Part shown: positions 42,874 to 47,085 of the stretch, piece after piece
Numbering within the stretch: the first letter of the stretch is position 1
Layout: every line of letters begins with the position of its first letter
Source: a virus
Lineage: Duplodnaviria; Heunggongvirae; Uroviricota; Caudoviricetes
Strand: one strand, 5' to 3'
IMG/VR virus record: IMGVR_UViG_3300042890_003920
DNA length: 47,255 nucleotides
Translations under genes and position numbers: made by a program
Notes under the pieces: generated by a model
Told to the model about the DNA's origin: nothing
Database searches by the model: none
What the model saw: only the letters and a program-made list of their open reading frames with translations

Positions 42874-43122
42874 TTATACTAATTGTTGTAACATATGTTG
42901 TCTTCTATATTGAAGAAATATTTGTTTACATTGTTCTATTATTAAATCTCCTTCTGAATCGGTATAATGTAAACTGTTTAGTTCTAGTTCGTATGCTGAA
43001 TGTCCAAAATCTATCTTTAAAATTGGTCCGTTATCATATGTATATAAGTCTGTATAAACTATATTAAATGGATATAATTTTTTAATTTCTTCTGTAAATT
43101 GTAATATTAGTTCTTTAGTCAT
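42874..43122 (-). CDS. Hypothetical protein
   Basis: ORF track; coupled to the upstream stop. Confidence 0.65.
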   Translation of the reverse strand: MTKELILQFTEEIKKLYPFNIVYTDLYTYDNGPILKIDFGHSAYELELNSLHYTDSEGDLIIEQCKQIFLQYRRQHMLQQLV

Positions 43123-45445
43123 TAAGTATTTTTCTGGTAATTACTTGTTCATCTTCAGTTTTTATCTTTATGAATAGAATTTGTTTACTACATTCTAAAT
43201 TAATTTTAACATTATTTAAGTTAAAATTATTATCATATAAGAGTTTACCAGTAATATCATAAACCTTTACATTTTTAATAATTTTATTACTATCTATATT
43301 GATTTTATTATCTTTATTATAGATAATAGTATTATTTATAAAAAAATCGTTATTACCAAGAGAGTTGTTAGTGTATCTTAAAATAAATCTATCGTTGAAT
43401 GTTCCTGAAACTGAGTTAAAAGTATAAGGTGATTGTCTTAAATCATGTATTGTGTTTGAATATAAATCTTGTAAGTATATATTCTGAGTTGTAAATAATC
43501 CATTTACATCTGATAATTTGATTTTAAAATCTCCATTTATATTAGTTTTATATCCTAAGTTAATTGAATCATCTATATTAAATGGATATTGTCTACCTTG
43601 TATTGTTAGTAATTTATCATCTACTATAGTATAAAGTGATATTATATTTCCTGCTTCTAAAATTTCACCATCATAGTTACCATCAATATTATTTGTAGCA
43701 CCATTGACATAACCAATTAATATTTGTTTATATAGACCATTATCATTGGTCATTTCTAGCCAAAATCTAGCTTTTTCTTGTGAAGTTCTGAAAAATTGAT
43801 TATTATTATTTGTTAGTCTAAGCGAATTATTAAAGATTATATTAGTTGAAGTTGAAGTATTTTTAAAAAAGAAACCTTGACCTGCTGCTATTTTACCATT
43901 AGGAGTGTTATTATTTATGCCTGTATTTATTGCAGCAGCAGTTCCAACACCACCAACCAGTGTATAAACGGCATAGTCGTCACCGGTATAGTTATAATTA
44001 GTTATTGGTGTATTATGTGTCCAGAAGTATAATGTTCCTGGATAATTTGTAATTAGCATATCCGCAGATATTGCCGAGGGATAAGGATTTCCTATTAAGG
44101 TATATTCACTCCCAATAGCAACATTATAAACTCCGTTATTTGGTACTCCGGAAAAAATAGCTTCATATATTTGTGGTGTTGCTATATCAAATGGTTGAGG
44201 TGCTCTTATTATATAACCCATTCCAATTGACATATTTGAATTAGGTACAACATTTACCCAATTTGGTGTTGGTATTGAGAAATTCCATCTATAATATTTA
44301 TCACTTAGTGTATTTGGTGATAGATCTAATAGTGTTTGTGGACTGACAGGTGTTGACCAATATGTATAATCAAATCTTGTAACTGGGGTTGTCTTTCTTT
44401 TATATGTTATATTACCAGTATTTATAACATTATCATTTACTTGTACTATTGATCCACCATCTTCGACAATAACATTACCTGTACCATTAACTAATTCATT
44501 TTGTATTTTAATATATTGATTTGAATTTATTGTCAAATTTTTACCAGAATTAACTGTTACTGAACAAGCATCAAAACTACCTTGAGGTGATGGATTTGAA
44601 GTATTATAATTACCATCAATTATTACACTTGAATTTGATGTTGGTACACCATTTGACCAAACTGAGCCATTCCAAGTTGTTTGATTAGTTACATATTCCC
44701 AAGAGGTTCCAACTCTAATTTCATCTATTTCAATATTACCAGTACCACTTGCCTGTCTAATACAAATACTTTCAACTTTTATTGGTTTTGTGTTACCAGT
44801 TGTGCTTGTTAATAATGGTGGTTGTATATTTATTGTTGGATTAATCCATAATTCAGCGGTTGAAATGGTTGGTGTCATGTCATATTTTACAACTATAAAG
44901 TATGTACCTATTGGATAATTACTACTCCAAGTAGCATTGGTTGTAGCACCACCTTCATTAAGAATACCTAAATTGAAAGTACCTGGAATTGATCCAGTTC
45001 TAATACAACTTCTAGCTTGAAAAGCAGTCATTAGATTGGGTGAAATACCATTACCTTTATTTGTACAAGTGTGTAGAAAACTAGTATTATTTACTGAATT
45101 TGTTATATTAGTAGATAATCCAGTTGTGTTTAATACATTAATTATTGCGGAATAGTAGATAGTTGTTGATATAGGTGTTGGTAATGCTAGATTAATATCT
45201 TCTGTATTTCCTGATACAATTCTTAACTTATTACCTTGTGTACAGATCCCATTGTAGTTTAATGAAGTTGTTGTTGTTGTAATTTGTTTAACATATGTAA
45301 CAGGTGTAGTTGCAGGAAATACTGGTGTACCACTATGTGTAGTCCATCCATTATTAGTTAAAAAATCATTGTAGTTAAATGTATCAGTAACTTGCCCTAA
45401 ACAAATATTTGTAAAAAGTAGAAGAAGTAAAAAAATTTTTTTCAT
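43115..45445 (-). CDS. T9SS type A sorting-domain protein (Flavobacterium-type), 776 aa
   Basis: Signal CLG|Q; TWNGSVWSNGVP; RFWLEM...QILIGY..GAT...D; C-terminal VKVYDITGKLL...LFIKIKT...TRKIL. Confidence 0.8.
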   Translation of the reverse strand: MKKIFLLLLLFTNICLGQVTDTFNYNDFLTNNGWTTHSGTPVFPATTPVTYVKQITTTTTSLNYNGICTQGNKLRIVSGNTEDINLALPTPISTTIYYSAIINVLNTTGLSTNITNSVNNTSFLHTCTNKGNGISPNLMTAFQARSCIRTGSIPGTFNLGILNEGGATTNATWSSNYPIGTYFIVVKYDMTPTISTAELWINPTINIQPPLLTSTTGNTKPIKVESICIRQASGTGNIEIDEIRVGTSWEYVTNQTTWNGSVWSNGVPTSNSSVIIDGNYNTSNPSPQGSFDACSVTVNSGKNLTINSNQYIKIQNELVNGTGNVIVEDGGSIVQVNDNVINTGNITYKRKTTPVTRFDYTYWSTPVSPQTLLDLSPNTLSDKYYRWNFSIPTPNWVNVVPNSNMSIGMGYIIRAPQPFDIATPQIYEAIFSGVPNNGVYNVAIGSEYTLIGNPYPSAISADMLITNYPGTLYFWTHNTPITNYNYTGDDYAVYTLVGGVGTAAAINTGINNNTPNGKIAAGQGFFFKNTSTSTNIIFNNSLRLTNNNNQFFRTSQEKARFWLEMTNDNGLYKQILIGYVNGATNNIDGNYDGEILEAGNIISLYTIVDDKLLTIQGRQYPFNIDDSINLGYKTNINGDFKIKLSDVNGLFTTQNIYLQDLYSNTIHDLRQSPYTFNSVSGTFNDRFILRYTNNSLGNNDFFINNTIIYNKDNKINIDSNKIIKNVKVYDITGKLLYDNNFNLNNVKINLECSKQILFIKIKTEDEQVITRKILND

Positions 45446-45490
45446 TTTGAGTGTTTTTCTTTATATATAAAATAAGAATATAGTTGAAAC

Positions 45491-45520
45491 AAAAAAACCG
45501 AAACTAAGTTCCGGTTTTTT
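45491..45520. terminator. Intrinsic terminator
   Basis: AAAAAAACCG...CCGGTTTTTT. Confidence 0.65.
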
Positions 45521-45545
45521 AAAGTTATTCTAAAAGTTAATTTTA

Positions 45546-46058
45546 TTAGAATTTGTAAAGTACACCAAATTTAGGTGCATTGAAAGGATTATCAACACCA
45601 TCAAAACCTACACCAAATGATTCAGTCTCAAAGTTATAACCCGCTAAGTTAGCTAAGTTAGTAGAAAGTGCTAAGTTTTTAGTTACAAAATAGTTAACTC
45701 CTAAACCTAAATTAGTAGTAACAAAAGAATCACCTACTGTTGGATTTGTGTTATTTACTGCTAAACTAGTGAAGACTTTGAAGTCTTTTCCAACATTTAA
45801 GAAATAATGTCTAGCAAATGCACCGAAAGAGGTAGTATTACCAGTTGCATTTTTACCAGTTTCAACTGAAACTCCTACTGCAGTTTTGTCTGTTAAGAAA
45901 TAACCAACAGTTGGTGCAAATGTGTAAGTTGCATCAACATCTTTCGCTTTATCATAAGAGAAAGTTCCTTCAACGAATTTGTCAGATTTTTTAAATCCTG
46001 TTTGAGCAGTTGCCGTGAAGCCTAAAGCTGCTACTAAAATTAATAAAATTTTTTTCAT
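45546..46058 (-). CDS. Small outer-membrane beta-barrel protein (porin-family-like, ~8 strands)
   Basis: Signal TATA|Q; alternating beta strands, FAPTVGYF, LGVNYFV, terminal YKF. Confidence 0.85.
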   Translation of the reverse strand: MKKILLILVAALGFTATAQTGFKKSDKFVEGTFSYDKAKDVDATYTFAPTVGYFLTDKTAVGVSVETGKNATGNTTSFGAFARHYFLNVGKDFKVFTSLAVNNTNPTVGDSFVTTNLGLGVNYFVTKNLALSTNLANLAGYNFETESFGVGFDGVDNPFNAPKFGVLYKF

Positions 46059-46132
46059 TTTTAATTATTGTTTTTTTTTAATGTGTGGAAAATTCCAGAC
46101 ACTTCTATTTATATACAAAAGTTTAAAAAAGT

Positions 46133-47014
46133 TTAGTTTATTGTCAATCTTTTTGTTGATGTTTTACCATCTTGTGTAATTTTTACAATATACATACCTG
46201 TTACTAAACTACTTACATTTAATTGACTTTGTATATTTTCTACTAAAACTTTTTTACCAACCATATCATAAATCTCTACATTTTTTGTAGAATTTATATC
46301 AGTTGTAATATTTAAAATGTTTTTTGTTGGGTTTGGATAAACTTGTAATCCAGAAATTTGATTTTGATTAGTAGATAGAACTAAGGCTCCATTTGATACT
46401 GTAAAATTATCGATTCTCCAAGCACCTGCTGCAGAATAGTTTGCCGCTGGTGTTGCTGCATAACCAACTGCTGAGTAATCTGATCCACTAGGATTAAAAA
46501 TTGATACTATTCTAAATGCAAATCCAGGTTGATTACTTGCATTAGATGGCATTATAAGTGTAACCATTGGTGTTGATGTAAACGAATTTGTTAATAATCC
46601 ACCATTGTTTCCGATTATAGTCCACGTATTACCACCGTTAATACTATATTCGTATTGTTGAAATCTTGATGAAGTATTTGAACCTCTTGGATCAAAGGTT
46701 ACGTTAATTGCATCTGTAAATCCAACAGTACTAACGTTAAATTGAAATCCTGCAGTACCTGATCCAGTTAATGTTAGTGGAAATGTTTTAATACTATATC
46801 CAAGATTAGTAGTTGCAGTACCATTACCTAATGGCATAGAACCAGCTGTATTAAGATTATCAACAACACCACCAATTGTTGTAAATGTTCCGCTACCAGT
46901 TGTTGGTATCATAGCAGCTGCGGGAGCTGTGTTGTCAAAGTTCCATTGTGCAATATTTTGTCCAAAAGAAATTGTTGTCATAAGTAAGACAACCATTGTT
47001 AAAAGTTTTTTCAT
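46133..47014 (-). CDS. T9SS type A sorting-domain protein, 293 aa
   Basis: Signal SFG|Q; CTD LQVYPNPTKNIL...IYDMVGKKV...LVTGMYIVKI...TKRLTIN. Confidence 0.9.
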   Translation of the reverse strand: MKKLLTMVVLLMTTISFGQNIAQWNFDNTAPAAAMIPTTGSGTFTTIGGVVDNLNTAGSMPLGNGTATTNLGYSIKTFPLTLTGSGTAGFQFNVSTVGFTDAINVTFDPRGSNTSSRFQQYEYSINGGNTWTIIGNNGGLLTNSFTSTPMVTLIMPSNASNQPGFAFRIVSIFNPSGSDYSAVGYAATPAANYSAAGAWRIDNFTVSNGALVLSTNQNQISGLQVYPNPTKNILNITTDINSTKNVEIYDMVGKKVLVENIQSQLNVSSLVTGMYIVKITQDGKTSTKRLTIN

Positions 47015-47085
47015 GTTTTTTGTTTTTATTTTTTTTACTTTCTTTATACAATTTGGATAGTAAAAGTTTAAAAACTTTATAAAAT

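What the first reader, a model, noticed from the sequence alone, without database searches (positions are those of the whole stretch)
43115..47069. Phage-encoded type IX secretion cargo island (two CTD proteins flanking an OM beta-barrel)
Seen: 293-aa and 776-aa proteins with SP|Q and type A C-terminal sorting domains, and a 170-aa beta-barrel ending in Phe, each behind the AAC-21 promoter. Known: type A CTDs route proteins through the Bacteroidota T9SS to the surface or medium, and T9SS/gliding machinery is linked to phage susceptibility in Flavobacterium. Inference: the phage hijacks the T9SS to redecorate the infected cell (superinfection exclusion, receptor masking, T9SS jamming, adhesion, or grazing avoidance). 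I know no characterised phage T9SS substrates.
Basis: partly seen in the sequence, partly recalled or inferred. Interest (0 to 1): 0.8.

Follow-up and report, generated by a model that had tools for sequence, protein, structure and literature searches.

The report
Phage-borne gliding-adhesin and secretion cargo genes
A giant lake-water phage of Flavobacterium carries genes for two proteins tagged for the host's type IX secretion system, one built on the stalk of the host's gliding adhesin RemA with an exchangeable tip, plus a phage-specific outer-membrane barrel, so the phage very probably redecorates the surface of the cell it infects; the general idea is already published, but the RemA-type stalk with swappable heads is new detail.

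Summary
Three minus-strand genes (293, 170 and 776 aa) have signal peptides cleaved before Gln, and each follows a conserved AAC-N17-TATAWA element. The region is internal to a phage genome: a relative (about 91% aa identity) runs on through GOLLD RNA and tRNAs to a terminase.

- **p293:** a jelly-roll domain plus a type A T9SS C-terminal domain (CTD). dN/dS between phages is 0.11.
- **p776:** residues 254-776 match RemZ and RemA, the F. johnsoniae gliding adhesins trapped in the T9SS translocon (E 1e-197). Its CTD superposes on theirs (TM 0.87-0.88) and keeps the PorV-contacting Lys. NCBIfam scores this CTD as type C.
- **p776 head (18-253):** an unnamed family also found directly on a short type A CTD in a 624-kb contig. 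Near-identical stalks carry at least four dissimilar heads.
- **Barrel:** belongs to a small family found only in large-phage contexts. It is not an obligate CTD partner.
- **Slot:** a close relative lacks p776, and another carries a TonB-dependent receptor there.

Phage T9SS cargo was published from sequence (Bellas 2020), and this scan noted it often on other DNA, including once a phage cargo with an adhesin-like stalk. The function is inferred, not shown.

The parts
47093..47116 (-). Intrinsic terminator upstream of p293; probably ends the GOLLD RNA that lies just beyond
   Evidence: 9-bp stem plus T-run; GOLLD mapped via L001
47043..47068 (-). AAC-N17-TATAAA promoter-like element of p293
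   Evidence: conserved in L006
46133..47014 (-). p293: signal peptide (residues 1-18), jelly-roll domain (19-212), type A T9SS CTD (225-293)
   Evidence: dN/dS 0.11 vs L006
46108..46133 (-). AAC-N17-TATAAA promoter-like element of the barrel gene (contains TATAAATA)
   Evidence: conserved in L006 and L021
45546..46058 (-). p170: small outer-membrane beta-barrel with signal peptide and C-terminal Phe; member of a family found only in large-phage contexts
   Evidence: dN/dS about 0.3
45491..45514 (-). Terminator hairpin plus T-run after the barrel gene; the p776 cassette starts right behind it
   Evidence: read from sequence; conserved with compensatory changes in L006 and L004
45460..45485 (-). 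AAC-N17-TATAAA promoter-like element of p776
   Evidence: conserved before the 714-aa gene of L004
44687..45394 (-). p776 head domain (residues 18-253): unnamed jelly-roll family, exchangeable
43337..44686 (-). p776 Rem stalk (residues 254-703), homologous to RemA/RemZ
43115..43336 (-). p776 CTD (residues 704-776) with invariant Lys772, plus stop codon
42874..43122 (-). p82: small conserved ORF whose start overlaps the p776 stop by 8 nt; function unknown
42472..42855 (-). p127: a fourth exported protein (signal peptide with Gln at +1), conserved beside the slot in relatives

Best explanation
This is a flexible cell-envelope gene slot in a very large, uncultured freshwater phage of Flavobacterium. 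Three separately promoted genes make exported proteins. p293 and p776 cross the inner membrane by Sec, with signal peptidase cutting before Gln. Their C-terminal domains are then recognised in the host SprA-PorV translocon and they are exported by the type IX secretion system. p293 is a small jelly-roll, probably glycan-binding, cargo. p776 is a cut-down RemA/RemZ-type gliding adhesin: a phage-chosen head mounted on the conserved Rem stalk and CTD, so it is probably displayed on the cell surface in the way host Rem adhesins are. p170 is inserted in the outer membrane by BAM as an independent phage outer-membrane protein. Shown here: gene structure, homology, fold, phage context, purifying selection and head swapping. 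Inferred: actual secretion, surface display, and the pay-off. The most likely pay-off is a change in what the infected cell binds and what can bind it. Rem and SprB adhesins are thought to be phage receptors, so the change may control phage adsorption or exclusion, or make infected cells stick to glycans or to neighbouring cells.
For: Phage context: window 22.4-47.0 kb is colinear (70-97% aa) with IMG/VR contig G002, which continues past the island to a large terminase over the Pfam cut-off. The same gene linkage occurs in independent assemblies and inside 326-kb and 624-kb contigs. Cargo signals: TIGR04183 and NF033708 hits over their cut-offs; CTD models superpose on solved translocon-bound CTDs (TM 0.80-0.88); the Lys at C-terminus minus 4, which H-bonds PorV in RemZ (PMC10994853), is invariant or nearly invariant. 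Rem homology: the profile hits RemZ at E 1.2e-197 and RemA at E 6.6e-188 over about 530 residues. Function retained in phages: dN/dS is 0.11 for p293, about 0.3 for the barrel and 0.39 for p776, against 0.13 for purA. The shared promoter-like element is conserved in relatives. Modularity: the same head sits on a short type A CTD in L012 (E 7e-26). Stalks that are 72-94% identical and share the signal peptide carry heads with no detectable similarity. Contigs from other lakes match the stalk and diverge at the head junction. RemA is a mobile surface lectin whose secretion needs PorV and SprA (PMC11205867, PMC9127263). SprB and RemA are thought to be phage receptors (PMC9804748).
Against: There is no experimental or expression evidence. 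The window itself has no virion hallmark gene or PHROG hit, so its phage identity rests on colinearity with relatives. p776 is dispensable, being absent from G002, and the p293 copy in L007 is frameshifted. The head has no known fold relative by sequence, so 'glycan-binding' is a guess based on jelly-roll and CBM-like structural neighbours. How type A Rem adhesins stay attached to the cell or the gliding track is not known to me, so display of p776 'like RemA' is by analogy only.
Confidence: 0.6

Rival explanations
1. The heads are secreted enzymes (a nuclease or glycan-degrading activity) rather than binding modules. On this view the island is an extracellular auxiliary-metabolism or weapon set.
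For: One head-family relative (P0332) partly matches the T9SS-dependent endonuclease family NF052644 (98 bits), a family with demonstrated nuclease activity (PMC12398890). The head alignment has invariant or nearly invariant polar residues, including H20, E65, D66, R213, D224 and E225. Cryophage's cargo were glycoside hydrolases.
Against: The P0332 hit is far below the 260-bit cut-off. The p776 head gives no hit even at E<=1, and other relatives match that family only through the CTD. No Pfam or PDB enzyme hit appears for 36 family members. Structural neighbours are CBM- or lectin-like.
Confidence: 0.12
2. The genes are recently captured host genes with no role for the phage (neutral passengers).
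For: p776 shows presence/absence variation between close relatives. The p293 copy in L007 is frameshifted. Homologues are abundant on Flavobacterium chromosomes.
Against: dN/dS is 0.11-0.39 between phage copies. The phage copies form their own clade, apart from the chromosomal clades. Phage-specific promoter-like elements are conserved. The barrel family has no member in a named bacterial genome and occurs in diverse large-phage contexts. The head family recurs on two different tails within the phage clade.
Confidence: 0.08
3. The proteins are virion components (fibres or decoration), and the CTD is merely an Ig-like fold.
For: Ig-like and adhesin-type domains are common on phage particles. 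Giant fibre-like genes lie nearby at 32-41 kb.
Against: Both have cleavable Sec signal peptides with Gln at +1. The CTDs pass curated T9SS models and keep the PorV-contacting Lys. The stalk is homologous to a cell-surface adhesin. The terminase and sheath-like genes of the relative lie more than 50 kb away.
Confidence: 0.05
4. The region is host DNA joined to phage DNA by misassembly at the contig end.
For: The island sits in the last 4 kb of the window. All contigs carrying the exact p776 sequence break within about 1 kb beyond p293. IMG/VR classes G003 as a provirus.
Against: The same junctions occur in several independent assemblies and samples. The orthologous island is internal in contigs of 180, 326 and 624 kb, with phage-like genes on both sides. 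GC content is uniform. The sequence beyond the break is a GOLLD RNA conserved at 90-95% among these phages.
Confidence: 0.02

Closest known systems
RemA (Fjoh_0808) and RemZ (Fjoh_0803) of Flavobacterium johnsoniae, T9SS-secreted gliding adhesins (PDB 8gl6_D, 8gl8_D; Lauber et al. 2024, PMC10994853)
   Same: The C-terminal ~530 residues (stalk plus CTD) are homologous (E 1e-197 and 7e-188). The CTD superposes at 1.3-1.4 A. The PorV-contacting Lys is conserved. There is a Sec signal peptide.
   Different: p776 is only 776 aa, against 1114 and 1436. It is encoded by a phage. Its head belongs to an unnamed family that gave no match to any PDB sequence, RemA and RemZ included, and no Pfam match, so it is not RemA's lectin head. 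Surface movement and adhesion are untested.
T9SS type A CTD cargo genes of 'Cryophage' (Bellas et al. 2020, Nat Commun, PMC7468147)
   Same: Phage-encoded proteins carry T9SS CTDs, they vary strongly between otherwise near-identical phage genomes, and the same 'hijack the host T9SS' interpretation applies.
   Different: Cryophage is a 76-kb phage whose cargo are glycoside hydrolases and a PA14 protein. Here the phage is several hundred kb. One cargo is a Rem-type adhesin stalk with cassette heads, and a phage-specific OMP and a TonB-receptor alternative share the slot.
Phage lambda Lom (Ail/OmpX/Lom family 8-stranded OMP) and other phage-encoded outer-membrane proteins (from my own knowledge)
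   Same: p170 is a small phage-encoded beta-barrel placed in the host outer membrane.
   Different: p170 showed no match to the Ail/Lom Pfam family in the Pfam scan. It resembles Bacteroidota OMP_b-brl (PF13505) proteins instead. The host is a Bacteroidota bacterium, and the phage's lifestyle is unknown.
Type B CTD cargo with cognate PorP/SprF barrels (SprB/SprF)
   Same: A cargo gene lies next to an outer-membrane barrel gene.
   Different: The CTDs here are of type A/Rem type, not type B. The barrel is far smaller (170 aa) and gave no PorP/SprF hit. Its relatives occur without CTD neighbours.

Membership tests
T9SS type A CTD cargo (TIGR04183 / PF18962) | C-terminal domain scoring over the curated cut-off, at the extreme C-terminus | tested here: met
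   p293: TIGR04183 53.7 bits (cut-off 23) and PF18962 58.3 (cut-off 27), residues 225-292 of 293. For p776 this HMM is NOT met (16.1 < 23).
T9SS type A CTD cargo (TIGR04183 / PF18962) | N-terminal Sec signal peptide | tested here: met
   MKK + hydrophobic core + small-x-small | Q in p293 and p776. This was read by eye; no signal-peptide predictor was run.
T9SS type A CTD cargo (TIGR04183 / PF18962) | CTD fold and the conserved Lys that contacts PorV | tested here: met
   TM 0.80 to the NucA CTD and 0.87-0.88 to the RemZ/RemA CTDs. K289 of 293 is nearly invariant and K772 of 776 is invariant, the same position as RemZ K1110 of 1114.
T9SS type A CTD cargo (TIGR04183 / PF18962) | Secretion depends on SprA, PorV and GldKLMN | not testable with these tools
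   Needs expression in F. johnsoniae wild type and mutants.
T9SS 'type C' (ChiA-like) sorting signal, NF033708 | HMM over the curated cut-off | tested here: met
   p776: 44.0 bits vs 40, residues 723-775. Relatives P0005 and L005 fall below it at 21-22 bits. NCBI labels this family inconsistently as A or C.
RemA/RemZ gliding-adhesin family | Homology over the conserved C-terminal stalk plus CTD | tested here: met
   The A2 profile matches RemZ 573-1112 at E 1.2e-197 and RemA 896-1434 at E 6.6e-188. The stalk model has pLDDT about 90.
RemA/RemZ gliding-adhesin family | Lectin (rhamnose/galactose-binding) head as in RemA | tested here: not met
   The head (18-253) has no Pfam or NCBIfam hit and no match to any PDB sequence, RemA and RemZ included. 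It belongs to an unnamed family.
RemA/RemZ gliding-adhesin family | Moves along the cell surface and supports gliding or aggregation | not testable with these tools
   Needs live-cell labelling in a Flavobacterium host.
OMP_b-brl (PF13505) small outer-membrane barrels | Pfam match over threshold; signal peptide; C-terminal aromatic residue | tested here: inconclusive
   p170's own best hit is OprF at 22.6 vs 23.5. Many homologues carry precomputed PF13505, and the Atlas feature neighbours score 0.98 and are all OMP_b-brl. The signal peptide and terminal Phe are present. No structure was predicted.
PorP/SprF cargo-partner barrels | PorP/SprF family match and constant adjacency to a CTD cargo | tested here: not met
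   No such hit appears in Pfam or NCBIfam. Barrel relatives in L019, L020 and L021 have no CTD neighbour.

The most novel reading that the evidence does not exclude
The phage plugs its own adhesin into the host's gliding conveyor. p776 would be loaded onto the Rem/SprB track and actively moved, and its exchangeable heads would let different phage strains reprogramme what an infected, still-gliding cell sticks to. That could steer infected cells onto particles or neighbouring hosts, or displace the receptor adhesins that rival phages need. This would be viral manipulation of bacterial motility and adhesion through a polymorphic, cassette-like surface locus.
Probability: 0.15. Interest if true: 0.85.

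Novelty: new variant of a known kind. Interest (0 to 1): 0.55.

Why it matters
T9SS and gliding mutants of Flavobacterium are broadly phage-resistant, and SprB and RemA are thought to be receptors. How phages act back on this surface machinery is unknown. A phage-encoded Rem-type adhesin with strain-specific heads gives a concrete question that can be tested genetically in F. johnsoniae, which has mutants, antibodies and a solved translocon: does a phage load its own protein onto the secretion and gliding apparatus, and does that change phage adsorption, aggregation or movement of infected cells? It also marks an unnamed head domain (445 clusters at 50% identity) and a phage-restricted outer-membrane protein family as targets. 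The general notion of phage T9SS cargo is already in the literature, so the value lies in the specific architecture and its population-level variability.

Tried and rejected
- **PHROGs and phage DNA search:** PHROGs on ten large window ORFs gave no hits. Megablast of 17 kb against GenBank phages gave no match.
- **Window genome:** none is held.
- **Barrel as obligate partner of the CTD proteins:** rejected, because relatives at 50-70% identity sit in other large-phage contexts without CTD neighbours. I therefore did not spend the complex-prediction job.
- **Head as nuclease (NF052644):** only one relative matches beyond the CTD, and the p776 head gives nothing.
- **Head against PDB and Pfam:** a single-sequence search and a 36-sequence profile found nothing.
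- **Head family against the p293 N-domain:** hhalign probability 0.1%.
- **P0005 head against the p293 N-domain:** BLASTP E 0.9. The profile scores 13.5 bits, against a best of 10.6 among 1,000 shuffles. Suggestive only, not claimed.
- **AlphaFold model of the head:** failed (pLDDT about 35) because the alignment is shallow there. I relied on the Atlas's own model.
- **Papers not held:** Shrivastava 2012 and 2013, so RemA facts are cited second-hand from reviews.
- **Sequencing runs:** no RNA holder listed. The laid runs are contigs only. The near-zero cover over the p776 head in three runs, and several short-sided joints such as 42257>46040 and 41551>46238, are not used as evidence.
- **Sigma-70 promoter scan:** no enrichment (44 found vs 34.8 expected).

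
Full report
**Observation.** Each starts with MKK, a hydrophobic core and a small-x-small site followed by Gln. The neighbouring 127-aa ORF (42472-42855) has the same signature. The Gln is invariant in 43 homologues of p293. p293 carries a type A T9SS C-terminal domain (CTD) well over threshold: TIGR04183 scores 53.7 bits against a cut-off of 23, and PF18962 scores 58.3 against 27. The p776 CTD fails TIGR04183 (16.1) but passes NCBIfam's 'type C' model NF033708 (44.0 against 40). 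The barrel ends in …YKF. Its own Pfam score is marginal (OprF 22.6 against 23.5), but homologues carry PF13505 and its Atlas feature neighbours are all OMP_b-brl.

**Promoter-like element.** The window has 10 matches against 3.06 expected, and only 1 of 100 shuffles reaches that number. Three of the ten lie 40-75 nt upstream of exactly these three genes. The element is conserved upstream of the orthologues in related phages and is absent before p127, p82, purA and the 1446-aa gene. Terminators precede p293 and follow the barrel gene. The three genes are therefore separate transcription units.

**Is it phage DNA?** The window itself gives no virion hallmark: ten large ORFs have no PHROG hit, and GenBank phages share no DNA with it. 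Its neighbours include purA, Mqo, a TonB-dependent receptor, NadR and LRR giants. The chimera worry was real, because the island occupies the last 4 kb and every contig with the identical p776 breaks within about 1 kb beyond p293. Four results remove it:

- The same gene order, from p293 to the 1446-aa gene, is found in independent assemblies from other samples.
- Window 22.4-47.0 kb is colinear, at 70-97% aa identity, with the first 20 kb of the 179.6-kb IMG/VR contig G002.
- G002 runs on past the island through a GOLLD RNA, tRNAs, PHO4, a GIY-YIG endonuclease and polynucleotide kinase. It reaches a large terminase over the Pfam cut-off 53 kb further on, and a weak sheath-like hit.
- Related islands lie deep inside contigs of 326 kb and 624 kb, in fields of small orphan genes with HNH, T4_Y16D and SLT.

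Earlier scan notes on the same contig also call it a megaphage. I tested that only through these relatives. The nearest cellular homologues are all Flavobacterium, and the sequence occurs in lake and river metagenomes from 13 studies.

**p293.** This is a full-length family of about 285-295 aa. Copies with 60-95% identity lie on unnamed contigs, some 136-326 kb long. Copies at or below 56% lie on named Flavobacterium chromosomes such as F. agri and F. antarcticum. The model is confident (pLDDT 88.7). It shows a jelly-roll beta-sandwich with weak matches to CBM, MAM, reelin-B and galactose-binding-like domains, followed by a CTD that superposes on the translocon-bound NucA CTD (TM 0.80). Between the window and G002 its dN/dS is 0.11, as constrained as purA at 0.13. 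The copy in L007 is broken by one frameshift.

**p776.** Residues 254-776 always align to the extreme C-terminus of hundreds of Flavobacterium proteins whose N-terminal parts differ widely. A profile of this module hits the PDB sequences of RemZ (8gl8_D, residues 573-1112, E 1.2e-197) and RemA (8gl6_D, residues 896-1434, E 6.6e-188).

- RemA is the mobile surface lectin of F. johnsoniae involved in gliding, and its secretion needs PorV and SprA.
- RemZ is its homologue, trapped as a 'Type A substrate' inside the SprA pore in contact with PorV (PMC10994853).
- The modelled p776 CTD superposes on both solved CTDs (TM 0.87-0.88, rmsd 1.3-1.4 A).
- The Lys four residues from the C-terminus, which hydrogen-bonds PorV in RemZ, is invariant in the p776 alignment (K772) and nearly invariant in p293 (K289).

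NCBI itself labels this family either way.

**The head and its exchange.** Residues 18-253 of p776 are shared only with P0002 (98% identical over the head) and P0006 (about 50%). The same head (32% identity, E 7e-26) forms the N-terminal domain of a 342-aa protein in the 624-kb contig, where it is joined directly to a type A CTD. An exhaustive search finds 445 clusters at 50% identity with this domain. It usually sits right after the signal peptide, in proteins of about 330 aa or 1,000-2,100 aa, and most of the relatives I scanned have TIGR04183 tails. The domain has no Pfam, NCBIfam or PDB relative by sequence, even with a 36-sequence profile. The Atlas model places it among jelly-roll N-domains of Bacteroidota and Verrucomicrobiota secreted proteins.

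Conversely, stalks that are 94%, 89% and 72% identical to the window's (P0004, P0003, P0005) share its signal peptide almost letter for letter, yet carry heads with no detectable similarity to it or to one another. Contigs from two other lakes match the stalk and then continue for 650-686 nt unlike the window, from the head/stalk junction onward (records 20 and 27). The architecture is therefore constant signal peptide, variable head, constant stalk and CTD.

In a maximum-likelihood tree of the stalk, the window's clade (100/100 support) is separate from the Flavobacterium chromosomal clades. The copy in a complete 147-kb DTR phage (L005) branches elsewhere, so starred branches force at least two origins of the phage-side label. 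A two-pattern scan finds Rem-stalk relatives on seven IMG/VR contigs of 52-294 kb.

**The barrel and the slot.** The p170 family is small: 87 proteins, none from a named bacterial genome. Copies at 70-72% identity lie beside CTD proteins in L004, L006 and L012. Copies at 50-70% identity lie in other large-phage contexts without any CTD neighbour: L019/L020 carry Mom, GroEL and GH19, and L021 carries DNA pol B, ClpP and IF3. dN/dS is about 0.3. I read it as an independent phage outer-membrane protein, analogous to lambda Lom, and not as a cargo partner.

The slot between p293 and the conserved block of p82, p127, DUF1653 and purA is flexible:

- G002 has p293 plus the barrel and no p776. The cassette begins exactly behind the barrel's conserved terminator.
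- L007 has an 840-aa TonB-dependent receptor there.
- L004 has the barrel plus a 714-aa Rem protein.

All occupants are outer-membrane or surface proteins.

**Mechanism (inferred).** The genes are expressed from phage-type promoters. The proteins are exported by Sec. The CTD is captured by SprA-PorV and the protein is exported by the T9SS. p776 is then displayed through the Rem stalk, and p170 is inserted by BAM. The pay-off is not shown. SprB and RemA are thought to be phage receptors, and gliding or T9SS mutants are broadly phage-resistant (PMC9804748). RemA overexpression makes cells aggregate. The two most plausible pay-offs are therefore control of phage adsorption to infected cells, and altered adhesion or aggregation of infected cells. 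The head polymorphism suggests an arms race or the tracking of variable glycans.

**Novelty.** Phage-encoded T9SS cargo has been described from sequence, with the same interpretation, in the 76-kb 'Cryophage', where such genes are also hypervariable (PMC7468147). It was also noted in crAss-like contigs (PMC6949934). This scan has recorded it on many other genomes, including one phage cargo with a 'gliding-adhesin-like stalk' and bacterial RemA-like proteins with swappable heads. I found no experimental study and no paper on phage-borne Rem-family adhesins. I therefore rate this a new variant of a known kind, of moderate interest.

Noticed in passing
window 47149-47255 (-), continuing beyond the window end; L001 464-870; L006 9457-9863: A GOLLD RNA (Rfam RF02032, 327 and 323 bits against a gathering score of 150) lies immediately upstream of p293, and the window end cuts it. 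The whole ORF-free stretch of about 1 kb is 90-95% identical in DNA between phages whose flanking proteins are only 76-91% identical. In L006, tRNAs lie next to it.
   Followed up: partly
L007 10891-13413; also window 18930-20888: In the related contig G003, the slot that holds p776 here holds an 840-aa TonB-dependent receptor (Plug plus barrel). The window has its own TonB-dependent receptor elsewhere. These phages carry several host-type outer-membrane proteins.
   Followed up: partly
L007 10001-10865: The p293 orthologue in G003 is split by a single frameshift into a 186-aa N-part and a CTD in another frame. This is either a pseudogene or a sequencing error. IMG/VR classes G003 as a provirus, possibly because of its host-like genes.
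   Followed up: partly
window 32192-36511: The 1439-aa LRR protein has no counterpart in the otherwise colinear G002. It is a second presence/absence gene near the island.
   Followed up: no
window 42473-42874: Two contigs of run X3 join 42473 to 42874, a form lacking the exported 127-aa gene, with 153 letters on the shorter side of the joint.
   Followed up: no
window 1925-3181, 3489-4658, 6952-8289: Three ORFs of 389-445 aa all match the same G002 region (56.1-57.3 kb) at 29-32% identity. They form a paralogous family with no Pfam or PHROG hit.
   Followed up: no
window 29457-29482 (-): An AAC-N17-TATAAA match lies about 30 nt upstream of tRNA-Cys (29358-29428, minus strand), so the same element may drive the tRNA.
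   Followed up: no
P0005 head (L004 10001-10600) vs p293 residues 19-212: The head of the 714-aa Rem protein is the top hit to a p293 N-domain profile: 13.5 bits over 150 colinear residues, against a best of 10.6 among 1,000 shuffles. If real, both head types of this island occur on both kinds of tail.
   Followed up: partly
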